The notes below the pieces were generated by a model. It did no database searches. It saw only the letters and a list, made by a program, of their open reading frames with translations, and was not told the DNA's origin. Positions 1 to 10,928 of a stretch of DNA of 64,000 nt are shown in pieces (within the stretch, counting starts at the first letter, position 1; every line of letters starts with the position of its first letter). Position numbers and translations under genes: made by a program. Origin of the DNA: a virus (lineage: Duplodnaviria > Caudoviricetes); the IMG/VR virus record IMGVR_UViG_3300037851_000284, positions 32,001 to 96,000 of that record; one strand, 5' to 3'.

Positions 1-99
1 ATAATTTTGGCAGAATAAACTAAAGTGGAAAGGTCTGCAAAGGATTCGAGTCCCTTTGTGCAGTATTAAAAGACCACGCGAATCCACAACTGTAATTTT

Positions 100-171
100 T
101 GAGGCGTAGGATAACGGCAATCCGCTGGATTGTTAATCCAGACATTACTGGTTCAAGTCCAGTCGCCTCAG
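100..171 (+). tRNA. trnN: tRNA-Asn(GTT)
   Basis: Acceptor TGAGGCG/CGCCTCA, anticodon arm CTGGA-TTGTTAA-TCCAG, T arm ACTGG-TTCAAGT-CCAGT; no encoded CCA. Confidence 0.92.
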
Positions 172-421
172 TTGTTTTGTGTAAGATTTATTATTATATT
201 TTAAGCTGATTTTCTATCCATACTTCCAATTTCGAATGTCTATTATCGGCAGACTTATTACTAGAATAAGCAGCCAAGCAAGAATGAGAGCAGAACAGCC
301 TGCTCGATTTAGATTTTTCAATTTCAGCGTTTGTTTTAATAATTTTCTTTTTACATGTTTCACAGTTAAGTTCTTTTTTACGACTTTTACAGACAGTTTC
401 GAAATTGAAAATTCAAAATAT

Positions 422-496
422 TGGGACGTAGTTCAATGGTAGAACAATGGCCCTTGGAGCCATCTGTTAAGGGTTCAAATCCTTTCGTCCCAGCCA
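422..496 (+). tRNA. trnQ: tRNA-Gln(TTG)
   Basis: Acceptor TGGGACG/CGTCCCA, anticodon arm ATGGC-CCTTGGA-GCCAT, T loop TTCAAAT, encoded CCA. Confidence 0.92.
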
Positions 497-506
497 GTTA
501 GGATAT

Positions 507-704
507 ATGCCTGAAAAAGAATATATATTAACACAATATTTTCTTGATAAGTACCCGTTAGAAGCCAAGACTATTGTAATTGGTGAACAAGAAACAAAGG
601 CCTTATTAAAAAACTTTAACGAGTTTTTTTACAATGATAGGATAAATAGTCCTATCCTACTAAGGGGTCAGTATACAAACAATATACTGATGAGAATTAA
701 ATAA
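507..704 (+). CDS. hypothetical protein
   Basis: 65 aa ORF directly after tRNA-Gln with AGGA RBS. Confidence 0.55.
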   Translation: MPEKEYILTQYFLDKYPLEAKTIVIGEQETKALLKNFNEFFYNDRINSPILLRGQYTNNILMRIK

Positions 705-802
705 CATGGAATTCAAACCAAACAAAATATCCAAAAGTAACACGCATTTTGGTGCCTCAGGAGAAGATACACCATAAATTACGTCGAGAATGGCTAGTTG
801 GC

Positions 803-836
803 AAAAACCCTCTCGACGAAAGTTGGGAGGGTTTTT
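803..836 (+). terminator. intrinsic terminator hairpin
   Basis: AAAACCCTCTCGAC-GAAA-GTTGGGAGGGTTTT stem with GNRA loop and T tract. Confidence 0.65.
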
Positions 837-996
837 AAATGGGTAAAAATATGAGCATTAAATGTAGAATATACTGGACTATAACAATTATATGTCCATG
901 GATCATAAGAAAACTCAATAAATATAAGAATAAGTGTCTAGCAAAGAGACTTGAGGACTTGTCTTGGACTATGAGTCATAACGAAGGAGGTATAAC

Positions 997-1242
997 ATGG
1001 ATGAACGTAGAACACCAGTTATAATAACAAGAAGAAAGAATAAGAAACGACATCCTCAGTCTGGAACCAAGTCTGGACGTTCCAAGGTATGGTACGAAGT
1101 TTTCTGTCCTATTCATGGAACAAAGAATATGGACAACAAAGTTGTATTAAAGGTGGGATGTCCCGAAAGTCGTAAGGAACGGTTCTATACTGGATGTCCA
1201 AAATGTAAAGCAATCAATGATAAAAAGGGGGCTGTAGTTTAA
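997..1242 (+). CDS. small Cys/His-rich hypothetical protein (possible Zn-binding)
   Basis: GGAGG RBS; CPxH ... CP ... CPxC; last codons overlap tRNA-Ala. Confidence 0.55.
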   Translation: MDERRTPVIITRRKNKKRHPQSGTKSGRSKVWYEVFCPIHGTKNMDNKVVLKVGCPESRKERFYTGCPKCKAINDKKGAVV

Positions 1243-1299
1243 TCGGAAAAATTGTAGATTTGCAATCTATAGTCATCGGATCGTAACCGATCAGCTCCA
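1228..1299 (+). tRNA. trnA: tRNA-Ala(TGC)
   Basis: Acceptor GGGGCTG/CAGCTCC with G3:U70 Ala determinant; anticodon arm GTAGA-TTTGCAA-TCTAT; atypical T loop ATCGTAA. Confidence 0.88.
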
Positions 1300-1500
1300 A
1301 GTAAGGAGATCATGTGGAAAAAATAACTTCCTTTAAATCAGATAAAACAAGAGAATTACATAACAAGTTAGTCGCCAATGTCAAAGATATCCTTGGAGAT
1401 ATTATACCAGATGGATACAAAATTAAAGAAATCCAAATTGATATATATAACGGGGAAACCCGTTTAATAATAAGTTCTGATATTTAAATAGAAGAAAAAT

Positions 1501-1698
1501 ATGTTTAAACTAGATCATGTCGGAAATACAAAGTTTTATACAATAATACCAATATTATTATATATTAGTGTTACAGAAATAAAACAGGAAGATAAAATGG
1601 TTGGTAAGAAGGCGGTAGCTATTGCTATTCATATTACACCCTTATTTGCATTTGGCTTTTCCATAATTAAGAAATTTAATGAATACGAGAATTGGTAA
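1501..1698 (+). CDS. small membrane protein, hypothetical
   Basis: 65 aa with two hydrophobic stretches. Confidence 0.5.
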   Translation: MFKLDHVGNTKFYTIIPILLYISVTEIKQEDKMVGKKAVAIAIHITPLFAFGFSIIKKFNEYENW

Positions 1699-1699
1699 G

Positions 1700-1774
1700 G
1701 CTGTATCGTTCAGTTTATTGTGAGAGCGTTTGCTTGAAACACAGAAGATTATTTATTCAATTCCGATTGCAGTT
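1700..1774 (+). pseudogene. degenerate tRNA, probably Phe(GAA)
   Basis: Residual acceptor GCTGTAT/ATTGCAGT, D-loop-like GTTCAGTT, loop TTGAAAC, T-loop-like TTCAATTCC, but anticodon and T stems no longer pair. Confidence 0.5.
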
Positions 1775-1791
1775 AACATAAAGGAGGAACT

Positions 1792-1989
1792 ATGGCAGAA
1801 TACTTGTATACACTACAGTTAAAGTTTACTGCTCTAGATGATGTAGCTGCAAGAACAGAGATATTTAACGAGGATTTTGAAAACAAACTTATTGCTTGTG
1901 GAACTAAAAAATTACAGGAAATTTATTTAGACAAGCCACCAAGAAAAGTAGATATCACAAATACCACAGTCCTTTCGTCCAGTGGTTAA
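1792..1989 (+). CDS. hypothetical protein
   Basis: Strong AAGGAGG RBS; 3' end overlaps tRNA-Glu. Confidence 0.55.
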   Translation: MAEYLYTLQLKFTALDDVAARTEIFNEDFENKLIACGTKKLQEIYLDKPPRKVDITNTTVLSSSG

Positions 1990-2039
1990 GACATCTGGTT
2001 TTCAGCCAGAAGACAAGAGTTCGATTCTCTTAAGGACTA
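1968..2039 (+). tRNA. trnE: tRNA-Glu(TTC)
   Basis: Acceptor AGTCCTT/AAGGACT, anticodon arm TCTGG-TTTTCAG-CCAGA, T arm AAGAG-TTCGATT-CTCTT. Confidence 0.92.
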
Positions 2040-2142
2040 AGAAGGGTCAACTATAAGTTATTACTTTTATATTGCTGGATCAATATGTTTTATAATTGGG
2101 TCGATAACCAGACTATTATTTAAACACTGAAATGAAACAACT

Positions 2143-2469
2143 ATGATAATCCACATAGAAAAGTTCTACGATTTTTATATCAATGCGTGTAAAAAGTTTA
2201 GCATATCCCCAGATGACTATACAACTTTTCATAATGATATAATTGTCACAGTAAGTCATGCCTTGGATTGTTTATTAAAAGATCCCACAGGGGGAATATA
2301 TTCAAACAAGCTCAGTAATGGAGCATACATTCTATTAATTCCTGATTTGTCAGGATTTGTATATGCCATAGTTCCAACAATTGAAGAAAGAGACAAAATA
2401 TTGAAAGAACTACTCGAAAGATACTCATCAAAAGAGAATAAATCCTTAACTGGAGTAGAGTTATTCTAA
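2143..2469 (+). CDS. hypothetical protein
   Basis: 108 aa ORF coupled (TAATG) to the HNH gene. Confidence 0.6.
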   Translation: MIIHIEKFYDFYINACKKFSISPDDYTTFHNDIIVTVSHALDCLLKDPTGGIYSNKLSNGAYILLIPDLSGFVYAIVPTIEERDKILKELLERYSSKENKSLTGVELF

Positions 2470-3065
2470 TGTTTGAAGATTCTGTAGTTGTATTAAATAA
2501 ATATCTGGAATACTGGACTGACACATCAATTAGAAGAGCAGTAAGTAAGATAATAAACAATAGGGCTTCTGTAGTAAAAGAAGATAAGTCGGTATTATTG
2601 GGAACTATAGGAATTGGAATAGGAACAGAGTCAATACTCCAACCAATATATAAACCATTAGTAATTAAGCTGTTATATTTCGATTACTATAGATACAAGA
2701 CCGACAAGGTTAATTATACGGACAGGGCGGTATTTGTAAGGGACCAAGGAATTTGCCAATATTGGCATAACAATACACAATACAAGTGTCTACCTTCTGA
2801 AATGACCATCGACCATGTAATCCCGTTATCTAGAAACGGAAAGGCTAATGATTTCACTAATGCCGTTACTTGTTGCCGGAATTGTAATGAAATACTTAAG
2901 AAAAATAATACTCCAGAAGAAGCGGGGTTAAGGCTCATTAGAAGCCCAAAAATACCAAAGAGAATAAAAGGAGATGCGGTAAGATCCTTTTTCATATATA
3001 ATAATAAGAGTCTTGCTCATAAAGCATATATAGAGTTTCTCATGGGTATTAGTACAGATGGATAA
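2469..3065 (+). CDS. HNH endonuclease (McrA-like)
   Basis: VFVRDQGICQY ... TIDHVIPLSRNG ... NAVTCCRNCN ... TPEEAGLRL signature. Confidence 0.88.
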   Translation: MFEDSVVVLNKYLEYWTDTSIRRAVSKIINNRASVVKEDKSVLLGTIGIGIGTESILQPIYKPLVIKLLYFDYYRYKTDKVNYTDRAVFVRDQGICQYWHNNTQYKCLPSEMTIDHVIPLSRNGKANDFTNAVTCCRNCNEILKKNNTPEEAGLRLIRSPKIPKRIKGDAVRSFFIYNNKSLAHKAYIEFLMGISTDG

Positions 3066-3068
3066 TAT

Positions 3069-3139
3069 GGGGTATTAGTTCAGTGGTAGAATATCTCCCT
3101 GTCACGGAAAAGCCACCAGTTCAATTCTGGTATACCCCG
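3069..3139 (+). tRNA. trnD: tRNA-Asp(GTC)
   Basis: Acceptor GGGGTAT/ATACCCC, loop CTGTCAC, T arm ACCAG-TTCAATT-CTGGT. Confidence 0.9.
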
Positions 3140-3254
3140 TTATAACTAAATTAAATTATTGAGAGAAAGCAAATGGAATATCAGAACTTTTTGTAGACAA
3201 CAAGCTAAGAGATAGAAACTTCGTACCAACAGCAGGATGGAAACTAGATTAAAA

Positions 3255-3339
3255 GGAGAGTTAGGATAACGGTAATCCATTAGGTTGCTAACCTAACGAC
3301 CCAAAAAGGGTCTTGCAAGTTCAAATCTTGTACTCTCCT
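3255..3339 (+). tRNA. trnS: tRNA-Ser(GCT)
   Basis: Acceptor GGAGAGT/ACTCTCC, anticodon arm TTAGG-TTGCTAA-CCTAA, long variable arm GACCC-AAAAA-GGGTC. Confidence 0.92.
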
Positions 3340-3357
3340 CTAAAAGAAAGAATCAGC

Positions 3358-3630
3358 ATGATTGAATTACGCTTCACTAGTCCAGCTAGCATTTATTCTC
3401 AAAGGTCTGAGAGACCATTCAAGAGAATTAATCAACTAGATGCATATCTAGATAGTCTTGAGCTTCCGGAGAGAATGACGTTTAAAGAAGAAAGAGGAAC
3501 ATATACTACAGTGTTTTGCCATTCTGGAGAATTAGTGATAATCAGAATGGATATGTATCTTTCCTGGATATTACAAGAAGAATTAAGAGAATTTTTAACA
3601 CAACATGGATTTATAACAAGAAGGAACTAA
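3358..3630 (+). CDS. hypothetical protein
   Basis: ATG at 3358 chosen because the longer TTG start lies inside tRNA-Ser. Confidence 0.55.
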   Translation: MIELRFTSPASIYSQRSERPFKRINQLDAYLDSLELPERMTFKEERGTYTTVFCHSGELVIIRMDMYLSWILQEELREFLTQHGFITRRN

Positions 3631-3706
3631 GTGTCGTTGGCCTAGTGGTTTTGGGTCCCAGATTTCCAATCTGGTCACAGGTGTTCGATTCACCTACGGC
3701 ACTCCA
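3631..3706 (+). tRNA. trnG: tRNA-Gly(TCC)
   Basis: Acceptor GTGTCGT/ACGGCAC, U73, CCA; anticodon arm CCAGA-TTTCCAA-TCTGG. Confidence 0.9.
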
Positions 3707-3710
3707 TTTT

Positions 3711-4244
3711 ATGGAAAAAGAATTCATAGTAAAAGTAAAAGACTTTGATGAAAAGACAGACCCAACTAAGGTACATAACTGGAAAATTGGGGAAATAAAT
3801 TATACTGTCAATGTCGAAGAATATACATTTGATCCAAAGCCTAGAGCCTTGAATTTAAGAAGATCTTGTAATGAAGATTCAATAAACTCAGGGGATCCAG
3901 TAAGAGTACGCAATCTAGTAGAATCTCCAATAATGACAGTGGTGGAAATAAGACAGGAAAACGACGCAAAACGTCAGCGTATGGTGGAAGTTGTTGATGT
4001 AATTTGGTTTGATCAATTCCGTAATGTTAAAACAGCAGGTATAAGATTGGATCTGGTTGAGAAAGTAAATAAATCAGAGACATCTAAACCAAAATTTTCC
4101 GATGTAAGCATAGTAACTTCCGATCTCGTATTTAGAAGGCTGTGTTCTATAGGAGAAAAAGGTCTTGCTGTAAGGTACTTGAAGACTATGACTGGATTGG
4201 GAGTAAAAGAAGCACAGGATATTGTAGATAAAACTTCAACATAA
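3711..4244 (+). CDS. multi-module protein: YodC/DUF2158-like domain plus C-terminal ribosomal bL12-CTD-like motif
   Basis: GDPVRV...SPIMTV...VIWFD (DUF2158-like) and AVRYLKTMTGLGVKEAQDIVD (bL12-like helix pair); start moved past tRNA-Gly. Confidence 0.55.
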   Translation: MEKEFIVKVKDFDEKTDPTKVHNWKIGEINYTVNVEEYTFDPKPRALNLRRSCNEDSINSGDPVRVRNLVESPIMTVVEIRQENDAKRQRMVEVVDVIWFDQFRNVKTAGIRLDLVEKVNKSETSKPKFSDVSIVTSDLVFRRLCSIGEKGLAVRYLKTMTGLGVKEAQDIVDKTST

Positions 4245-4255
4245 GCAGAAATAAA

Positions 4256-4343
4256 GAAAGCGTGGCAGAGTCTGGTATCGCATCGGTCTTGAAAATCGAA
4301 AACGAAAAACGTTTCGCAGGTTCAAATCCTGTCGCTTCCTCCA
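4256..4343 (+). tRNA. trnS: tRNA-Ser(TGA)
   Basis: Anticodon arm TCGGT-CTTGAAA-ATCGA, long variable arm, T arm GCAGG-TTCAAAT-CCTGT, CCA; one acceptor mismatch. Confidence 0.88.
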
Positions 4344-4358
4344 AATGAAGGAGATATT

Positions 4359-4988
4359 ATGAAAAACCCATACTGGGGAGATAAAGATGACTCACAATCG
4401 AAAATAATTTCAACAAATAACTCATCAAGAGCAGAGATATACAAAGAGCTTGCGTTTGTTGAAACAGTATCTAATAGAATATATTTCTATTCAGAGATTG
4501 GAAGAAACGAGGTTCTTCAACTGAACAGAAGACTAAGGGAATTAAGTAACGAGCTCTTGGTAGCCGCAGCTGAACAAGAAAGACCACCAGCAAAGATATT
4601 TTTACATATTAACAGCTTTGGTGGGTCCATATTTGCAGGATTATCTAGTATGGACGAAATAGTCAGTTCACGAGCATCAATAACAACCATAGTAGATGGA
4701 TGTTGTGCTTCTTCGGCAACTTTCCTATCTGTAGTAGGAAAAGAAAGGATAATAAGACCAAATGCCTTTATGCTAATTCACCAACTACAGTCAGCATTTT
4801 GGGGAGGTAAATTCAGGGAATTACAGGATGAACATAAAAATAGTGAGAAACTAATGGAAACCATAAAAGACATATACAAGAAACATACAAAAATCCCACC
4901 GGAAAAGATAGATGAAATTCTTGATCACGATTTATGGTTTGATGCCAGAACTTGTGTAGATTATGGTCTAGTAGACAAAATTGCCTAA
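4359..4988 (+). CDS. clpP: ClpP-family serine protease
   Basis: LHINSFGGS, GCCASSAT (Ser), FMLIHQ (His), DHDLWF (Asp). Confidence 0.9.
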   Translation: MKNPYWGDKDDSQSKIISTNNSSRAEIYKELAFVETVSNRIYFYSEIGRNEVLQLNRRLRELSNELLVAAAEQERPPAKIFLHINSFGGSIFAGLSSMDEIVSSRASITTIVDGCCASSATFLSVVGKERIIRPNAFMLIHQLQSAFWGGKFRELQDEHKNSEKLMETIKDIYKKHTKIPPEKIDEILDHDLWFDARTCVDYGLVDKIA

Positions 4989-5360: not shown

Positions 5361-5587
5361 GAAATTAGAAAAATCGTGGTGAAGAATTTGATGGCAGTAT
5401 TAAATTTAAGAGATGTAGATTATGCTCTAGACATTGTGGAGGAAAAGTAAATTTAATCAGACATAGTAGGGTCATTTTTAGATCACCTCCGTGCCATACT
5501 AATAAGATTGAATTATGTAGACAATGCATAAGGAACCCGCTTACACAAAATAGAATAAGCATGGGTTATTTCAAGGGAACACCATGA
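5357..5587 (+). pseudogene. Cys-rich small gene interrupted by in-frame TAG at codon 4
   Basis: GTG overlaps upstream stop (GTGA) and TGA overlaps downstream start (ATGA); reads MRN*KNRG...CRLCSRHC...CRQC. Confidence 0.45.
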
Positions 5588-5940
5588 AAATTCTAATATT
5601 AGAGGATAGTTCAGATAGGATAGACGAATTCAAGAAAAAACTTGTCAGCCACGAAGTAGTTATAACAAACAAGCCAAGTGAATGTATCAAGTTTCTTGAG
5701 GAAGGGAAATGGGACTATCTATTTCTAGACCACGATATGGGTGTAATATTTGAGAAACCCAGTAAAGGCACAGGTTATGAAGTAGCATTGTGGATAGCAG
5801 AACATACTGAATATTGTCCAAGGCATATACTTATTCATAGTATGAATAATGTAGGTGCCGCTGCTATGATGCAAGTTCTTGGTTCTGTTGGAGTAAGAGC
5901 TACTTATATACCCCTTTTATGGGAAAAGATAAGAATATAA
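5584..5940 (+). CDS. cyclic-phosphate-processing receiver-like domain (cREC type)
   Basis: ILILED ... LFLDHDMG ... GTGYEVALW ... IHSMNNVG: DHD and HSxN motifs typical of this divergent receiver family. Confidence 0.75.
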   Translation: MKILILEDSSDRIDEFKKKLVSHEVVITNKPSECIKFLEEGKWDYLFLDHDMGVIFEKPSKGTGYEVALWIAEHTEYCPRHILIHSMNNVGAAAMMQVLGSVGVRATYIPLLWEKIRI

Positions 5941-6359: not shown

Positions 6360-6911
6360 ATGGAATTCATACCATTTCCAAAAATACACAGGATATCCAG
6401 ACCTTGTGTTGTTACAGAAAAGATTGATGGCACAAATGCATGTATATGTATTACCAAAGAAGGAGAATTCCTAACTGGTTCACGTACCAAATGGATAACT
6501 CCTTCCGATGATAATCATGGGTTCTCAAAGTGGGCCCATGAGAACAAAGACGAACTGTTAAAACTCGGTATTGGCTGTCATCATGGAGAATGGTGGGGAC
6601 AGGAGATTCAAAGAACATATGGATTAAAGGAAAAGAGGTTTTCTCTATTTAATACATCTAAATGGCTAGACCCACTTGTAAGACCAAAATGTTGTCATAT
6701 TGTACCAGTATTATATGAGGGCTTATTTGACACTGTGGAAATAAACAAATGTCTGGATCGCCTTGCTCAAACAGGAAGCATAGCAGCACCAAACTTTATG
6801 AAACCAGAAGGAATAGTTATATTTCATGTAGCTGGAAATTTTTGCCTAAAAAAGACTTTAAACAATGATGGATTACCAAAGAGTTTGGTAAAGGAGGAAC
6901 AGCATGCCTAG
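6360..6911 (+). CDS. ATP-dependent RNA ligase (compact adenylyltransferase domain)
   Basis: FPKI start, motif I TEKIDGTN, GEWWG, PEGIVI, terminal KK. Confidence 0.85.
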   Translation: MEFIPFPKIHRISRPCVVTEKIDGTNACICITKEGEFLTGSRTKWITPSDDNHGFSKWAHENKDELLKLGIGCHHGEWWGQEIQRTYGLKEKRFSLFNTSKWLDPLVRPKCCHIVPVLYEGLFDTVEINKCLDRLAQTGSIAAPNFMKPEGIVIFHVAGNFCLKKTLNNDGLPKSLVKEEQHA

Positions 6912-6976: not shown

Positions 6977-7282
6977 ATGAAGAACCTCCGGAAGAGGAAG
7001 ATGATGATAACATGGGACAAACATCCTGATATAGTTACTAGGAAAAGAACATCTAAACTGGGTATTTGCAATAGATGCGACTCCTTCTCTTCCTTATTTA
7101 CTTCGGGTGATGGTTATTATCTCTGTAGAGAATGTTACAGAGATATAATTGGTAGCATATTTGATACAGAACTAAATGAAAAAATAAATAAGATGAGGAA
7201 AGAAAGAGAATTAAACGCAAGAGAGTTTGATTTTATTAACAGGAGAAAAAGGGGTCTCTGTCCATTAGTACTGAGATGGTAA
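6977..7282 (+). CDS. small Zn-finger hypothetical protein
   Basis: CNRC ... CREC. Confidence 0.5.
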   Translation: MKNLRKRKMMITWDKHPDIVTRKRTSKLGICNRCDSFSSLFTSGDGYYLCRECYRDIIGSIFDTELNEKINKMRKERELNAREFDFINRRKRGLCPLVLRW

Positions 7283-7357
7283 TTCCTTCTTCCTTTTTGA
7301 ATTATTCGGATGATATTTTGTTTCGTTAGGGAACATGAACAAAGTATCAAGATAAGC

Positions 7358-7439
7358 TGGAGTTTCAACGTTAGTGTTGTACCTGTTCATTACTGGTTTC
7401 TAGTGGTAAGTAACTAAGGGGTAAACACGATATTATCCA
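7358..7439 (+). ncRNA. candidate structured RNA (nested hairpin)
   Basis: TGGA/TCCA, GTGTT/AACAC, TACC/GGTA and ATTACTGG/CTAGTGGT nested pairings in an intergenic gap. Confidence 0.35.
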
Positions 7440-7442
7440 ATA

Positions 7443-7561
7443 GCGGGTGTAGTACAGAGTTACTTCTGGTTTAATGCGAAAGCAGAGTGGGTCGAATCCC
7501 ACAACCCTATAGAAATATAGGTCTTGTCTCTGTATAATTTGTCTCTGTATAATTTGCCCGC
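7443..7561 (+). ncRNA. Y-RNA-like unit A (with T-arm-like hairpin)
   Basis: GCGGG/CCCGC; TGTAG; TACAGAG/CTCTGTA; TTACTTC; inner GTGGG-TCGAAT-CCCAC and CCTATA-GAAA-TATAGG. Confidence 0.65.
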
Positions 7562-7571
7562 AAAAATTTAA

Positions 7572-7651
7572 AAGAAACTGGGTGTAGATAGCAGATACTT
7601 CACTTTTATTGAAAAAAGCAGAAACCCTGCTATTGATTTAATCAGTTTCTT
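7572..7651 (+). ncRNA. Y-RNA-like unit B
   Basis: AAGAAACTG/CAGTTTCTT; TGTAG; ATAGCAG/CTGCTAT; ATACTTC; inner TTCA-CTTTTAT-TGAA. Confidence 0.65.
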
Positions 7652-7665
7652 TTCAGTATAAACCT

Positions 7666-7737
7666 GTGGGTGTAGAAAACTGTTACTTCGACTGCTAATC
7701 GACGCCCGAAAGGGATATCAGTTTTCGCTTTTCCCAC
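7666..7737 (+). ncRNA. Y-RNA-like unit C
   Basis: GTGGG/CCCAC; TGTAG; AAAACTG/CAGTTTT; TTACTTC; inner TCGA-CTGCTAA-TCGA and CCC-GAAA-GGG. Confidence 0.7.
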
Positions 7738-7758
7738 TTTTATTTTCTTGGAGGTAAT

Positions 7759-8133
7759 ATGCCTAGAATAAAGGTTGCGTTGTTAATATATAAACCGTTA
7801 TCAGACAATCAAGACCAACAAGATAAAATCCTTCTGGTAGAAAGACCAGATGGAAGTATGTCTATTCCAACAGTACAAGTTGGAGACTATCAAGGGATTA
7901 AGGAATGTATTGACCATTTAGTGAACCCTCACATGGAAATAGAAGAGACGGAACCAATTGGTATCTATGAAGATATGGATATAGAAATACATGATATCTA
8001 CATAGTATACCTGTGCGAAGTTAAAATAAAGGCAACAATCCCTTGTAATTATAAATGGATAACAGGAAAAAGCGTTAGCTTCCAATATAGACATATAGAC
8101 CAAAATTCAAGAGAAATTATTGAGATGTTATAA
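7759..8133 (+). CDS. NUDIX-fold protein with degenerate Nudix box
   Basis: KVALLI...KILLVERPDGSMSIP...G then no REUXEE; later IGIYED...IVYLC and KWI as in MutT-like fold. Confidence 0.55.
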   Translation: MPRIKVALLIYKPLSDNQDQQDKILLVERPDGSMSIPTVQVGDYQGIKECIDHLVNPHMEIEETEPIGIYEDMDIEIHDIYIVYLCEVKIKATIPCNYKWITGKSVSFQYRHIDQNSREIIEML

Positions 8134-8139
8134 AATTTT

Positions 8140-8199
8140 AAAGGGTGTAAACAAGAGATACTTCTACCATAATGAAACTCTCTTGCTGCTTTTCCCTTT
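8140..8199 (+). ncRNA. Y-RNA-like unit D (minimal)
   Basis: AAAGGG/CCCTTT; TGTAA; CAAGAG/CTCTTG; ATACTTC; TGCTTTT. Confidence 0.65.
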
Positions 8200-8213
8200 A
8201 TTAACATTACATC

Positions 8214-8277
8214 GGACGGGTGTAGTCGGGAGATACTTCTATAACGGTGAAAAAAACTCCCAACGCTTTACTCGTCC
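8214..8277 (+). ncRNA. Y-RNA-like unit E (minimal)
   Basis: GGACGGG/CTCGTCC; TGTAG; GGGAG/CTCCC; ATACTTC; CGCTTTA; ends 20 nt before the Ro60 start. Confidence 0.65.
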
Positions 8278-8297
8278 ATTTTTAAAAAGGAGAACGT

Positions 8298-9776
8298 ATG
8301 AAAGCGAATACAAGTGCTGAAGGACAGGGACTATCCAAGATAACCGACGGAGTAGTTCTAAATAAAGAAGGAGCAGTGGCTTACGCTCTGAAGGATAAAG
8401 AGAAACTAGTCACAGGTATTTTAACGAACTTCTTTAAAGAGCCTAAATTTTATGGAGATAATACCCCTGAGATAATCGAGACTGCCCGTAAGATTATACA
8501 GGAAGATCCAGAGTTCGTGGCAAAGGCAGCGTGCTTTGCACGTAACAAGTTTCATATGAGATCCATCTCTCATGCTCTTTCCGCCGAAGTAGCAAGAGGG
8601 GCAAAGGGGAATAAAATTGTCCGCAAGATGATCAGAAAAGTCATTGAGCGGGCCGATGATATGACTAACATTATATCATATCATATAAACACATGGGGAA
8701 AGCGTGGGAAAGAAAATCCTATTCCAAGAGGACTTCGAAGAGGTCTAGCCGATGTGTTTCCTCGGTTTGACGAGTATGCACTGGCAAAATACAAAGGAGA
8801 GAGCAAAACCGTCAAACTGCGTGACGTTCTCAAAATGATTCATCCCACTCCAAAGAATAAGGAGCAGGGTGAAATGTGGAAGCGTCTTATTGAGGGAACG
8901 CTGGCTACTCCTGAGACCAGAGAGACAATACTCTCTGATAAAGGACAGTCAAAGGAAGTATGGGAAAGTATCCTAGATGGTAAAGCGGGATACATGATGA
9001 TACTCCGCAACTTGAAAAATATACTTGAGCATGGTATAGATGATACTCATCTAGATAAAGTGTGCTCTCTATTGAAGGATCCTGATGAAGTTCGTTCCTC
9101 AAAACAACTTCCGTTCAGATTCCTTTCCGCATACAGAATGGTTCAAGATATGGGCAATCCGAGAGGAGCAAAGGTATTAGAAACTCTGGAAGATGCTCTT
9201 CTAACATCGACCGAGAACGTACAAAAGCTAAAAGGAATAACTGCTGTACTGACAGACGAATCAGGATCAATGACTCGTCTATTATCAAAAAACTCGTTAG
9301 TTAGGTACAGAGATGTTGGTAATTTGTTGGCAGCCATTTCACACAGAATATGTGATAGTTCTGTTATTGTCCCCTTTGGCACAGATGCTGTAGTATTAAC
9401 ACTTTCTCCTAGATCAAGCGTATTTGATAACATGAAGAGAATGAATAGTTCTGGTGTTGGCCACTCAACCAATGTACACATAGCTCTAGGAAAAGCATTC
9501 TCTGTAAATGTAAAAATAGACAGGATAATCCTGTTCTCAGATATGCAGGCTTATGGATGCTCAGATGGAATAAATTCCATGGTTCAGAACTACAGACGTG
9601 ATAAGAATTCCAACTTATGGGTACATTCTGTAGACCTAGCGGGATATGGAACCACCCAGTTAACGGATAAAGTTAATCTGATAGCAGGATGGTCAGAGAA
9701 GATTCTAGACTACATAGGTCTCGTCGAGAACAGAGGGTTAAGTCTTGTAGAAGATATTGAAAACTACAAGCTGTAA
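8298..9776 (+). CDS. Ro60/TROVE-domain RNA-binding protein with C-terminal vWA domain
   Basis: NKEGAVAY start, DPEFVAKAACFAR, YALAKY, HP, TWE-like TRETILS, YMMILRNL, LPFRFLSAY, MIDAS DESGS, FSDMQ, DLAGYG. Confidence 0.93.
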   Translation: MKANTSAEGQGLSKITDGVVLNKEGAVAYALKDKEKLVTGILTNFFKEPKFYGDNTPEIIETARKIIQEDPEFVAKAACFARNKFHMRSISHALSAEVARGAKGNKIVRKMIRKVIERADDMTNIISYHINTWGKRGKENPIPRGLRRGLADVFPRFDEYALAKYKGESKTVKLRDVLKMIHPTPKNKEQGEMWKRLIEGTLATPETRETILSDKGQSKEVWESILDGKAGYMMILRNLKNILEHGIDDTHLDKVCSLLKDPDEVRSSKQLPFRFLSAYRMVQDMGNPRGAKVLETLEDALLTSTENVQKLKGITAVLTDESGSMTRLLSKNSLVRYRDVGNLLAAISHRICDSSVIVPFGTDAVVLTLSPRSSVFDNMKRMNSSGVGHSTNVHIALGKAFSVNVKIDRIILFSDMQAYGCSDGINSMVQNYRRDKNSNLWVHSVDLAGYGTTQLTDKVNLIAGWSEKILDYIGLVENRGLSLVEDIENYKL

Positions 9777-9786
9777 CCCTCTGATA

Positions 9787-9822
9787 ATACGGGGGATACA
9801 CGACAAAAGTATCCCTCGTATG
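9787..9822 (+). terminator. hairpin after Ro60
   Basis: ATACGGGGGATAC-N9-GTATCCCTCGTAT; weak T tract. Confidence 0.45.
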
Positions 9823-9834
9823 TTCTATACTAAT

Positions 9835-10047
9835 GGGATAAGTTAAGTGAAAAGCAAATATTCTAGAGATATAGGAAAATAGATTAGAATAGGCCCCCCT
9901 TTTGCATCTTTTCGGGGCTACTGGACATTTCTAAAAGATACTGGGTTGTTGACTACAACACAGTTAGTATGACTGTATTATACTTGGTAAGTGGGATCAA
10001 ACAACCTGTAGTCCTGTTTATTCCATGCTACCATCTTGATTTATCCC
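9835..10047 (+). ncRNA. candidate ~210 nt rod-like structured RNA
   Basis: GGGATAAGTTAAGTG/CATCTTGATTTATCCC closing stem with nested GAATAGGC/GTTTATTC, GGCTAC/GTAGTC, GGGTTGTT/AACAACCT. Confidence 0.5.
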
Positions 10048-10059
10048 CTTAATTTTATC

Positions 10060-10159
10060 TTTTGGAGTAACTTTGGATAATACAAGTTTTATTGAACAAA
10101 GGAAAGGAGTATTTTACAAAGTCGCGTCGCTGTAACTGTGACTAGTGCAGACTTCAAAA
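10060..10159 (+). ncRNA. candidate ~100 nt structured RNA
   Basis: TTTTGGAGT/ACTTCAAAA closing stem; ACTTTG/CAAAGT, AATAC/GTATT, GTCGC/GTGAC inner pairings. Confidence 0.35.
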
Positions 10160-10188
10160 CTCTTTTACAACGTTAGTTAAAAGTAAAA

Positions 10189-10608
10189 ATGACAAGTGTA
10201 CATTTAAGAGACAAAAACAATCTAATAACAATAGCAGTCGCCGGAAAAGTTCCAATAAGAGGAAGAACCTCCTCTAACCAATATTTTCATACCCCATTAG
10301 AATTATTACTGTGTTCCCTTGGTCTCTGTGTTGGAGGGATCATAAATAATTTTTGTCGCGTGTATGATATTAATCCCCTTATATTTGAGGATATTACCAT
10401 ATCTTTCGATGGATTTATATTTATTGTATCTCTAACTAGACCTTCTGATTTCAAGCTAGAGTTTGAAAGGTTGCTAGAGATTTACATAAAAGATTGTTCA
10501 ATAGCGAGAGAACTAAAAAAAGATTTATCCATAAAATGGGGCGTAAACAGCGCACCAGTGGAGAAATTGATAGCAAGAAAAGAAAAGCCTTGCTGTGGAG
10601 GAAACTAA
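10189..10608 (+). CDS. OsmC-like protein
   Basis: TPLELLLCSLGLCVGG and distal CSIARELK two-Cys pattern. Confidence 0.7.
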   Translation: MTSVHLRDKNNLITIAVAGKVPIRGRTSSNQYFHTPLELLLCSLGLCVGGIINNFCRVYDINPLIFEDITISFDGFIFIVSLTRPSDFKLEFERLLEIYIKDCSIARELKKDLSIKWGVNSAPVEKLIARKEKPCCGGN

Positions 10609-10928
10609 TGGCTTTGAATTTAAGAAGAGGACTATCGAAAGACGATCAAATACAACACGATAAAGAGATGAATCAAAAACCAGTAGTGGTAGATGAAGAG
10701 ATCAACCTTAACAACTGTGTTTTTTGTATTACAGGAACAATACAAGGAATGACCAGAGACCAAGCAGTAAAGAAAATATTGGAGAAGTTTCCAAGCGCAA
10801 GATTCTCACCATCTATGTCCTCAGATGTAGAATATCTTATTACTGGTACTGGATGTGGACAGACAAAATTACGGGTAGCAGCAAGAAGAGGAAGTACACT
10901 AATTGAAGCTAACTCAATCCTAAGGTAA
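10608..10928 (+). CDS. stand-alone BRCT-domain protein
   Basis: FCITGT...MTRDQA...SMSSDVEYLITG...GQTKLRVAARRG as in NAD-ligase/RFC BRCT; start set at ATG 10608. Confidence 0.75.
   Translation: MALNLRRGLSKDDQIQHDKEMNQKPVVVDEEINLNNCVFCITGTIQGMTRDQAVKKILEKFPSARFSPSMSSDVEYLITGTGCGQTKLRVAARRGSTLIEANSILR

What the first reader, a model, noticed from the sequence alone, without database searches (positions are those of the whole stretch)
7443..9776. Array of five Y-RNA-like RNAs with a shared scaffold and swappable inner modules, upstream of a phage Ro60
Seen: five non-identical hairpins (7443-7561, 7572-7651, 7666-7737, 8140-8199, 8214-8277) share one architecture: [stem 1] TGTAR [6-7 bp stem 2] WTACTTC [variable module] [stem 2'] YRMTTT [stem 1']. 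The stems differ in sequence but keep complementarity (TACAGAG/CTCTGTA, ATAGCAG/CTGCTAT, AAAACTG/CAGTTTT, CAAGAG/CTCTTG, GGGAG/CTCCC), while the loop motifs are conserved. That is the covariation pattern of a structured RNA family, not a DNA repeat. Established: bacterial Ro60 (Rsr) genes are flanked by Y RNAs (Yrn1, YrlA/B) that have a Ro-binding stem and an often tRNA-like effector module. Inference: one Ro60 is loaded with a panel of five interchangeable RNAs whose effector modules range from tRNA-like to minimal, forming a modular phage RNP system. I cannot see the metazoan-type GGUCCGA element, so this may be a distinct family.
Basis: partly seen in the sequence, partly recalled or inferred. 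Interest (0 to 1): 0.9.

Follow-up and report, generated by a model that had tools for sequence, protein, structure and literature searches.

The report
Five Y-RNA genes beside phage Ro60
A large freshwater phage carries, just upstream of its Ro60 RNA-binding ring protein, five small structured RNA genes with one shared "handle" and different "heads"; they are a divergent branch of the known bacterial and phage Y RNAs that the standard RNA library misses, and the same branch lies in arrays beside Ro60 in many phages and Bacteroidota.

Summary
Five units at 7443-7561, 7572-7651, 7666-7737, 8140-8199 and 8214-8277 (+) share this layout: outer stem, GGGUGUAR, 7-bp stem, WUACUUC, variable head, 7-bp stem', YGYUUU tail, outer stem'. 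They are the only five in the 219-kb phage genome, and they end 20 nt before a TROVE/vWA Ro60 gene.

A covariance model built only from other phages' units finds four of the five (E 2e-7 to 1e-5). A second model finds all five and nothing else. The same model finds about 350 units next to Ro60 genes, every one on the Ro60 strand. These sit in viral contigs, Caulobacter phage CcrColossus (8), Xanthomonas phage Sopo (5), Bacillus phage G (4) and 80 mostly Bacteroidota loci (284). Both helices covary strongly.

The scaffold has the architecture of YrlA-type Y RNAs (Ro60-binding stem, internal loop, 7-bp "anticodon-like" stem, YUAY). The canonical CGAA is replaced by a clade-specific UGUA, and four of the five units lack any tRNA-like domain. 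Rfam YrlA scores nothing here.

Verdict: real Y-RNA-like partner RNAs, a new variant of a known kind. Ro60 binding and expression are untested (no RNA run was listed). This scan has described similar arrays on other DNA before.

The parts
7443..7561 (+). Y-like RNA unit 1 (119 nt). Outer stem 7443-7448/7556-7561, GGGUGUAG 7445-7452, inner stem 7453-7459 with 7543-7549 (or the duplicate at 7528-7534), UUACUUC 7460-7466. The head has a T-arm-like hairpin (about 7486-7501) and an acceptor-like hairpin (about 7506-7521), but no D arm.
   Evidence: MFE -40.4, z -4.15; R2 22.3 bits, E 0.012; the weak score reflects the long head and the duplication
7527..7556 (+). 15-nt tandem duplication (two copies of the inner-stem 3' strand plus tail) inside unit 1
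   Evidence: Read directly. Identical in contigs of two further freshwater runs (records 3 and 9).
7572..7651 (+). Y-like RNA unit 2 (80 nt). 10-bp outer stem, GGGUGUAG, inner stem 7588-7594/7627-7633, AUACUUC, 25-nt A-rich head.
   Evidence: z -3.75; R1 37.5 bits, E 2.1e-7; R2 E 8.3e-10
7666..7737 (+). Y-like RNA unit 3 (72 nt). Outer stem GUGGG/CCCAC, inner stem 7676-7682/7719-7725, UUACUUC. The head has two small hairpins, and a U-run follows the unit.
   Evidence: z -2.56; 30.8 bits, E 1.2e-5; E 1.5e-8
7759..8133 (+). 124-aa ORF with a Nudix fold and a degenerate Nudix box, inserted between units 3 and 4. It has no counterpart in the related Ro60 loci fetched here.
   Evidence: No Pfam or PHROG hit. 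ESM Atlas structural neighbours are NUDIX families at TM 0.72-0.80. tblastn finds no homologue in the other loci.
8140..8199 (+). Y-like RNA unit 4 (60 nt, minimal). AAAGGG/CCCUUU outer stem, UGUAA, inner stem 8151-8157/8180-8186, AUACUUC, 15-nt loop.
   Evidence: z -3.02; 35.3 bits, E 8e-7; E 1.0e-8
8214..8277 (+). Y-like RNA unit 5 (64 nt, minimal). 8-bp outer stem, UGUAG, inner stem 8226-8232/8257-8263, AUACUUC, 17-nt A-rich loop. It ends 20 nt before the Ro60 start codon.
   Evidence: z -4.14; 37.4 bits, E 2.3e-7; E 1.1e-8
8298..9776 (+). Ro60 (TROVE ring plus vWA), 492 aa
   Evidence: Pfam TROVE 1.5e-34, vWA_Ro60 1.7e-4. PDB 9KOP/9L5Y phage phiLo Ro60, E 5.7e-32. 2466 homologues, the best other at about 60% identity.
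5584..5940 (+). cREC (cyclic-phosphate-processing receiver) protein. It is a conserved neighbour upstream of Ro60 in the three closest relatives.
   Evidence: Pfam PF20274, 4.4e-18. tblastn 57-64% identity in L130, L188 and L189.
6360..6911 (+). RNA ligase (PF09414 / phrog_548)
   Evidence: 6.9e-16; 1.6e-27
99..4343 (+). Array of eight tRNA genes on the same strand (context)

Best explanation
The five units are paralogous genes for Y-RNA-like partner RNAs of the phage's own Ro60.

Shown: they form a conserved, covarying, strand-specific RNA family that is found only beside Ro60 genes. Their layout matches YrlA-type Y RNAs. The paired 5' and 3' ends form a terminal stem. Next comes an asymmetric internal loop, about 5 nt (UGUAG) against 6-8 nt (YGYUUUU). 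Then comes a 7-bp stem equivalent to the YrlA 'anticodon' stem. Then comes the conserved YUAY (here WUAC, extended to an invariant UACUUC). Last is a variable head.

Inferred: the array, the Nudix ORF and Ro60 are transcribed in one direction and the RNAs are cut out of the precursor, as shown for M. smegmatis YrlA/YrlB. Ro60 would bind the terminal stem and loop of each RNA on its outer surface. The heads would then gate the Ro60 cavity or tether the ring to different partners. The heads are one partly tRNA-like, two with small hairpins, and two A-rich single-stranded loops. The precedent for a partner is host PNPase, in Deinococcus and in Thermus phage phiLo.

The unit sits in an RNA-repair neighbourhood (cREC, RNA ligase, tRNA array). 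It would therefore serve RNA surveillance or repair, or counter host RNA-targeting defence, during infection.
For: Five exact motif copies are the only ones in the genome.

Model R1 was built from 16 units of other phages, none from this window. It finds units 2, 5, 4 and 3 at E 2e-7 to 1e-5, and the next hit in 64 kb has E 1.1. Model R2 finds exactly these five in 219 kb.

Linkage:
- 68 of 68 R1 hits in 48 viral Ro60 loci (plus this window) are on the Ro60 strand, within about 1.7 kb of the gene apart from a few in L140, L148 and L157.
- 30 hits in five whole phage records (1.2 Mb) all lie at the Ro60 locus.
- 284 of 284 hits in 80 bacterial Ro60 loci are on the Ro60 strand.
- A plain regex control gives 62 + against 6 - in viral loci and 202 + against 24 - in bacterial loci.

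Covariation:
- A7: 86.9% paired against 56.6% shuffled; score 0.797 against 0.230; slid controls at most 0.247; inner helix 95.3% paired with 7 of 7 pairs changed on both sides.
- The nearest relatives alone (A8): 88.4% against 59.1%.
- An alignment not fitted to a model (A6): 82.5% against 58.1%.

Architecture. Rfam YrlA (RF02553) aligns over its full length to the sister unit L130:3342-3473. Its helix 1 falls on the outer stem, its 5-nt loop on GUGUA, its 7-bp helix 2 on the inner stem, and CUAc on UUAC. Sub-threshold YrlA hits (30-52 bits) lie inside R2 units in phages Sopo and CcrColossus. This matches the published YrlA description: a Ro60-binding module, short loops, an AC stem, and a conserved UA kink (PMC4201824; bioRxiv 10.1101/312249).

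The closest solved Ro60 is the phiLo protein, which binds two upstream Y-like RNAs and host PNPase (PMC12135203).
Against: There is no expression or binding evidence. No RNA run was listed that holds the sequence, and the host is uncultured.

The canonical GNCGAA(N)G motif is absent, and GGUGUAG matches it at 5 of 7 positions. In phiLo Yrl2, single changes in CGAA cost only 3-4 fold in affinity, so the motif's weight is itself uncertain.

Rfam YrlA and metazoan Y_RNA give no hit here even at E 10. Four of the five units lack the tRNA-like domain that defines YrlA.

No clear promoter or terminator pattern was found: the promoter-like count equals that of shuffles. The A7 and A8 alignments were fitted to the model, so their pair counts lean towards it. 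A6 was not fitted.
Confidence: 0.85

Rival explanations
1. The hairpins are cis-acting parts of the Ro60 operon transcript rather than free trans-acting RNAs. They would be Ro60-binding sites for autoregulation, or processing and stability elements that set the dose of the Nudix and Ro60 mRNAs.
For: The units are on the same strand as Ro60 and close to it. Unit 5 ends 20 nt before the start codon. No separate promoters or terminators were detected above chance. In M. smegmatis, YrlA and YrlB come from one precursor that lies upstream of rsr (PMC4201824).
Against: In many relatives the arrays lie downstream of Ro60, or 1-3 kb away (L139, L148; Chryseobacterium loci). That position does not fit a 5' leader. 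The Shine-Dalgarno sequence (8286-8292) is outside unit 5's stem. Heads with full T/AS/D tRNA-like domains in sister loci have no obvious role in a leader. The two roles are not mutually exclusive.
Confidence: 0.08
2. The units are degenerate or circularly permuted tRNA precursors from the neighbouring tRNA array. They would be matured with the help of the adjacent RNA ligase and cREC, not act as Ro60 partners.
For: The Rfam tRNA model weakly aligns to the 5' half of sister units (L130:3345-3409 at 31 bits, L186:2743-2813 at 29 bits). A CcrColossus unit is annotated as tRNA-Gln. Authors of the YrlA structure raised a permuted-tRNA origin (10.1101/312249). An RNA ligase and cREC lie 0.5-1.9 kb upstream.
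Against: ARAGORN and Rfam find no tRNA in 7400-8300. Four of the five units have no T or D arm at all. The conserved part is the handle, not the tRNA-like part. Linkage is to Ro60 rather than to tRNA genes as such.
Confidence: 0.03
3. The repeats act at the DNA level, as operator or recombination sites or as a REP-like repeat, and the hairpin potential is incidental.
For: There are five similar elements in 840 bp, and a 15-nt tandem duplication in unit 1 shows local DNA slippage.
Against: Stem sequences differ completely between units while pairing is kept, G-U pairs included, which only works in RNA. The strict strand bias, about 350 to 0 by the model, is not expected for DNA palindromes.
Confidence: 0.02

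Closest known systems
YrlA (Rfam RF02553; S. Typhimurium, M. smegmatis, 22 phages; Chen et al. 2014, PMC4201824; Wang et al. 2018, bioRxiv 10.1101/312249)
   Same: It is encoded within 4 kb of Ro60 on the same strand. The 5' and 3' ends pair into a terminal stem that carries a conserved 5'-strand motif. It has an internal loop, then a 7-bp stem, then the conserved YUAY with UA, then the effector head. RF02553 aligns in exactly this register to a sister unit. Sister units in L130, Sopo and CcrColossus carry full T, acceptor-like and D arms.
   Different: CGAA is replaced by UGUA (GGUGUAG against GNCGAAG). YUAY is extended to an invariant UACUUC (68 of 68 units). Four of the five window units have no tRNA-like domain, and unit 1 lacks the D arm. 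There is no RF02553 hit in the window or genome even at E 1-10. The R2 model does not pick up the actinophage YrlA candidate (L185:2520-2636).
YrlB of Salmonella and M. smegmatis, and Yrl1/Yrl2 of Thermus phage phiLo (PMC12135203)
   Same: These are short Y-like RNAs without a full tRNA mimic, encoded with YrlA or upstream of a phage Ro60. They have a stem-bulge-stem layout with the motif in the internal loop. The phiLo Ro60 is the closest solved relative of this Ro60.
   Different: Those RNAs carry CGAA and occur as one or two per locus. Here there are five, with UGUAG plus UACUUC.
Deinococcus radiodurans Yrn1/Yrn2 and metazoan Y RNAs (Rfam RF00019)
   Same: The modular logic is the same: a Ro60-binding stem plus an effector-binding head. 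There are several paralogous Y RNAs per Ro60, and Yrn1 tethers PNPase.
   Different: There is no GGUCCGA or bulged-C helix, and no RF00019 hit at E 10. Head types differ.

Membership tests
Y RNA (Ro60-partner ncRNA, broad class) | Encoded next to a Ro60/TROVE gene, on the same strand | tested here: met
   The units lie 20-855 nt upstream of Ro60 on the + strand. Family-wide, every model hit lies beside a Ro60 gene on its strand.
Y RNA (Ro60-partner ncRNA, broad class) | Terminal stem formed by the 5' and 3' ends, with a conserved motif and an internal loop, plus a variable effector module | tested here: met
   Folds; covariation of both helices; heads of 15-76 nt.
Y RNA (Ro60-partner ncRNA, broad class) | Physically bound by Ro60 and present as a discrete small RNA | not testable with these tools
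   No RNA run was listed. No RNA-protein docking tool was available.
YrlA (Rfam RF02553) | Score at or above the gathering threshold (69 bits) | tested here: not met
   No hit at E<=10 in 7000-10200 and none at E<=1 in the genome. The sister unit in L130 scores only 25.6 bits.
YrlA (Rfam RF02553) | GNCGAAN0-1G motif near the 5' end | tested here: not met
   All five units have GGUGUAR, which matches at 5 of 7 positions. Related clades have CGUAG, CGCAG, CGAAU and UGAAA at the same place.
YrlA (Rfam RF02553) | tRNA-like domain with T arm, acceptor-like stem-loop and D arm | tested here: not met
   Unit 1 has a T-like hairpin (6-nt loop) and an acceptor-like hairpin only. Units 2-5 have none. 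There is no tRNA or YrlA hit.
YrlA (Rfam RF02553) | 7-bp 'anticodon-like' stem followed by the conserved YUAY (UA kink) | tested here: met
   A 7-bp inner stem is followed by UUAC or AUAC in all five units. The register is confirmed by the RF02553 alignment to L130.
   R1 gives 30.8-37.5 bits for units 2-5. R2 gives 45-50 bits for units 2-5 and 22.3 bits for unit 1.
tRNA | Cloverleaf recognised by ARAGORN or Rfam RF00005 | tested here: not met
   No tRNA is called between 4344 and 64000.

The most novel reading that the evidence does not exclude
The UACUUC-handle RNAs are a large, uncatalogued class of Ro60 partner RNAs in phages and Bacteroidota. A single Ro60 would draw on a genomic library of 5-8 or more RNAs with one handle and unrelated heads, each acting as an adaptor to a different target or effector. 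The handle's loop motif (UGUAG, CGUAG, CGCAG and so on) would co-evolve with the Ro60 clade as a specificity code that keeps phage RNAs on phage Ro60 and off host Ro60.
Probability: 0.3. Interest if true: 0.6.

Novelty: new variant of a known kind. Interest (0 to 1): 0.45.

Why it matters
Ro60/Y-RNA particles are well known from human autoimmunity, but their function is understood in very few organisms. Bacterial Y RNAs have so far been found mainly through their tRNA-like domain.

This locus, and the roughly 350 relatives recovered here, show that a handle-based definition finds many more partner RNAs per Ro60. The handle is a terminal stem, a loop, a 7-bp stem and UACUUC. Most of the RNAs it finds are not tRNA-like, and they occur in arrays of up to eight. 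Named, culturable systems are among them: CcrColossus with Caulobacter, phage G with Bacillus, and Flavobacterium and Chryseobacterium.

That gives tractable models for three questions. What do the different heads recruit? Is the loop motif a Ro60-clade specificity code? Does phage Ro60 work with the adjacent RNA-repair genes? It also suggests that Rfam's YrlA family needs a companion model.

Tried and rejected
- blastn of the region against 50,697 phage records gave no match.
- The search for related loci with the single Ro60 protein found nothing. The 31-sequence alignment was needed.
- An exact-pattern scan of viral contigs gave about 119 stretches that were almost all single chance hits. 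Only L122 was a real array.
- MAFFT on whole units misaligned the 3' halves, so I seeded the model with minimal units only.
- The seed alignment mixes two tail lengths (8 and 9 nt). This lowers outer-helix pairing to 72% in A6. I accepted it and let Infernal realign.
- Rfam gave no Y_RNA or YrlA hit in the window.
- The AlphaFold single-sequence model of ORF 7759-8133 was unusable, with pLDDT 37. I relied on the ESM Atlas model's neighbours instead.
- The promoter and terminator scan was not above shuffles for promoters. Its terminator hits are mostly the heads' own hairpins read on the wrong strand.
- Two searches for RNA runs listed none.
- Laying DNA contigs showed no variants, so there is no population covariation.
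- Annu Rev Microbiol 2020 (PMC10870794) and the supplements of Chen 2014 are not held. I could not check how many Y RNAs per phage were already tabulated.
- I considered a K-turn reading of the internal loop and dropped it, because the order AG rather than GA does not fit.
Full report
**Where the window lies.** The window is positions 32001-96000 of a 219,054-bp IMG/VR virus record that is estimated 95% complete. Identical sequence occurs in contigs of three freshwater metagenome runs from three studies. One of them may be the source sample.

**Observation.**
- Each unit starts with a 5-10 bp outer stem.
- This is followed by GGGUGUAG (UGUAA in unit 4).
- Next comes a 7-nt strand, then WUACUUC.
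- The head is 15-76 nt long.
- Next comes the complement of the 7-nt strand.
- The unit closes with a U-rich tail (UAAUUU, UGAUUUAAU, CGCUUUU, UGCUUUU, CGCUUU) and the outer-stem complement.

The spacing between GGTGTAR and TACTTC is exactly eight in all five units. The pattern matches five times without mismatch. With two mismatches allowed there are 8 matches against 1.76 expected, and no shuffle reaches 8. The whole genome holds just these five, all forward, and none for the reversed control pattern. All five fold as predicted, with z-scores from -2.6 to -4.2.

Unit 1 holds a 15-nt tandem duplication (7527-7541 and 7542-7556) that doubles its inner 3' strand and tail. The duplication is also present in contigs from two other runs, so it is not an assembly slip.

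**Surroundings.** All of the following lie on the + strand:
- eight tRNA genes at 99-4343
- ClpP at 4359-4988
- a cREC receiver-like protein at 5584-5940
- an RNA ligase at 6360-6911
- units 1-3
- a 124-aa ORF at 7759-8133
- units 4-5
- Ro60 at 8298-9776, with TROVE at 1.5e-34 and Ro60-type vWA at 1.7e-4 (below Pfam's cut-off)
- a BRCT protein

The 124-aa ORF has no Pfam or PHROG match. Its ESM Atlas model has NUDIX families as structural neighbours at TM 0.72-0.80. My single-sequence AlphaFold model was useless, with pLDDT 37. The ORF has no homologue in any related locus, whereas cREC is conserved upstream of Ro60 in the three closest relatives. The closest solved structure to this Ro60 is the Thermus phage phiLo Ro60, E 5.7e-32.

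**Relatives.** The Ro60 has 2466 homologues at E<=1e-5 among the candidates scored, the best at about 60% identity. A 31-protein alignment retrieved 50 viral loci and 80 loci from prokaryote genome assemblies.

A pattern scan had already turned up L122, which is part of a complete 213-kb phage whose Ro60 is 57% identical. There, five units with the same GGGUGUAG-N7-UUACUUC...CGUUUUUAUC handle lie directly upstream of Ro60. Two of those units carry a full T arm, acceptor-like stem-loop and D arm. Three share a CACGUUAUAGUCGUG hairpin. Heads are therefore mixed and matched on one handle.

A relaxed motif scan showed the same architecture in most viral Ro60 loci. The handle there usually reads GG-U-NN-CGUAG ... 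CGNUUGUU-NN-CC.

**Independent model test.** I aligned 16 minimal units from other phages, with none from this window (A6). I wrote the two helices by hand. The alignment was 82.5% paired against 58.1% in shuffles, with a covariation score of 0.731 against 0.259. From it I built model R1.
- R1 finds units 2, 5, 4 and 3 of the window at E 2.1e-7 to 1.2e-5. The next hit in 64 kb has E 1.1.
- Over the window plus 48 viral Ro60 loci, R1 gives 68 hits. All are on the Ro60 strand. Nearly all are within about 1.7 kb of the gene, upstream or downstream, and a few in L140, L148 and L157 lie farther off.
- On that alignment (A7) the inner helix is 95.3% paired, with all seven pairs showing changes on both sides. 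The outer helix is 79.5% paired.
- The overall A7 score is 0.797 against 0.230 for shuffles and at most 0.247 for slid partners.

Model R2, built from A7, gave the following results.
- It finds exactly the five units in the whole 219-kb genome.
- In five further whole phage records (1.2 Mb) it gives 30 hits, all clustered at the Ro60 locus.
- In the fetched Ro60 loci of named phages, it finds eight units upstream of Ro60 in Caulobacter phage CcrColossus, five in Xanthomonas phage Sopo, four in Bacillus phage G, and one clear unit in a crAss-like Bacteroides phage.
- In the 80 loci from prokaryote assemblies, R2 gives 284 hits, every one on the Ro60 strand and up to eight per locus. These loci are mainly Flavobacterium, Chryseobacterium and Pontibacter.
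- A plain regex with a stem check gives 62 + against 6 - in viral loci and 202 + against 24 - in bacterial loci.
- The window's own clade alone (window, L130, L188, L189) is 88.4% paired against 59.1%.

The family is therefore real, is an RNA, and is tied to Ro60.

**Relation to known Y RNAs.** Rfam 15 holds YrlA (RF02553, gathering score 69 bits). It gives nothing in the window at E<=10 or in the genome at E<=1. It reaches its threshold in none of the 34 related loci scanned at the gathering score, nor in the eight named-phage loci scanned at E<=0.1. Sub-threshold YrlA hits of 30-52 bits do occur, and they lie inside R2 units in Sopo and CcrColossus.

For the sister unit L130:3342-3473, RF02553 aligns over its full length at 25.6 bits, E 0.006. 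The mapping is:
- Rfam helix 1 onto the outer stem
- its 5-nt loop AUGCu onto GUGUA
- its 7-bp helix 2 onto the inner stem
- CUAc onto UUAC
- its 8-nt 3' loop onto CGUUUUUA

This matches the published description of S. Typhimurium YrlA. That RNA has a Ro60-binding module joined by short loops to an anticodon-like stem, and a conserved UA makes a kink (bioRxiv 10.1101/312249). It also matches the conserved GNCGAAN0-1G and YUAY motifs (PMC4201824).

Across the 68 viral units the loop 5-mer is clade-specific:
- UGUAG in the window, L130, L131, L140 and L146
- CGCAG in L125-L129 and L141
- CGUAG in most loci
- CGAAU, UGAAA and CAAAG in a few

The window's UGUAG is therefore one state of a YGNAG continuum that includes the canonical CGAAG. 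UACUUC is invariant in all 68. Part of that invariance reflects how the units were found.

R2 does not recognise the actinophage YrlA candidate (Gordonia phage Neville, L185:2520-2636, Rfam 44 bits). The UACUUC-handle group is thus a distinct branch and not simply YrlA re-found.

**Literature.**
- Chen et al. 2014 reported YrlA near Ro60 in 254 bacteria and 22 phages, including CcrColossus and phage G as cited in PMC12135203. They noted that non-tRNA-like partners escape bioinformatic discovery (PMC4201824).
- The phiLo study showed a phage Ro60 binding two upstream Y-like RNAs with a CGAA motif, and forming ternary complexes with host PNPase (PMC12135203).
- Iyer et al. 2021 placed TROVE proteins in jumbo-phage RNA-repair systems with cREC and RNA ligases (PMC7824862).
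- I found no paper in the held library that describes arrays of five to eight units or the UACUUC handle.
- The 2020 review and the 2014 supplements are not held, so prior tabulation cannot be excluded.

**Mechanism.** The shown steps are the family, its structure, its strand and its exclusive linkage to Ro60. The rest is inferred.
- The array is probably co-transcribed and then processed.
- Ro60 probably binds the outer stem and loop.
- The heads probably gate the Ro60 cavity or tether the ring.

The two minimal units and unit 2 have A-rich single-stranded heads, and the R1 and R2 model consensus for minimal heads is A-rich as well. Such heads would suit the S1/KH domains of PNPase. Unit 1 offers a T-arm-like elbow. 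The neighbouring cREC, RNA ligase, Nudix-fold protein and tRNA array point to RNA repair or surveillance, or to countering host RNA-targeting defence.

**Rivals.** I considered a cis-acting operon leader, permuted-tRNA precursors, and DNA-level repeats. Each is weighed in its own section. Three findings count against them: arrays downstream of Ro60 in relatives, the absence of tRNA features in four units, and RNA-type covariation with total strand bias.

**Earlier notes of this scan.** Earlier notes describe the same kind of array on other DNA:
- e1-3297857: five Y RNAs upstream of a phage Ro60 with a ligase and a receiver-like protein
- e1-5320501: five handle RNAs after a freshwater phage Ro60
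- e1-2563885: seven modules in a cyanobacterium

These notes agree with my reading but are not independent evidence.

**Verdict.** The feature is real and correctly read. It is a new variant of a known kind, and it is of moderate interest because it exposes a large uncatalogued branch of Ro60 partner RNAs with tractable hosts.

Noticed in passing
window 7527-7556: There is a perfect 15-nt tandem duplication (TCTCTGTATAATTTG twice) in the 3' half of unit 1. It gives two alternative partners for the inner stem and creates two TATAAT boxes about 20-35 nt upstream of unit 2. The same sequence occurs in contigs of two other freshwater runs.
   Followed up: partly
L180 (Caulobacter phage CcrColossus NC_019406.1) 2118-2283: The annotated tRNA-Gln (locus 2122-2189) lies inside a Y-like unit that has the GGCGUAG...UACUUC handle, a T arm and a D arm. 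It is probably a Y RNA mis-called as a tRNA. Rfam's tRNA model likewise aligns weakly to the 5' halves of units in L130, L186, L148, L133 and L134, which fits a dimeric-tRNA origin of the handle.
   Followed up: partly
L191-L267 (Flavobacterium, Chryseobacterium, Pontibacter and other rsr loci): Arrays of up to eight R2-type units lie 0.1-3.5 kb downstream of bacterial Ro60 genes, all on the Ro60 strand. None reaches the Rfam YrlA threshold in the loci I scanned. Some loci also hold long tRNA arrays (L191, L199, L255).
   Followed up: partly
window 7759-8133: A Nudix-fold ORF with a degenerate Nudix box is inserted in the middle of the RNA array. It is absent from all related Ro60 loci fetched here.
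   Followed up: partly
L188 (JALNZI010000003.1, 'Omnitrophota' MAG) and L189 (CAYVGZ010000001.1, 'Bathyarchaeia' MAG): These 136-kb and 197-kb contigs carry the closest Ro60 genes (60% and 53% identity), the same cREC gene, tRNAs and UGUAG-type units. They look like relatives of this phage that were binned into cellular MAGs.
   Followed up: no
L122 900-1110 (= L130 about 3120-3330): A 230-nt non-coding gap lies between units 4 and 5 of the sister phage. It begins GUGGUGUAGACCUACGAAAG and contains a weak abiF-RNA-like hit (23 bits, E 0.2). It may be another structured RNA.
   Followed up: no
window 10494-10928: A small BRCT-domain ORF with weak similarity to the C-terminus of NAD-dependent DNA ligase lies about 0.7 kb downstream of Ro60, and its frame overlaps ORF 10189-10608.
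   Followed up: no
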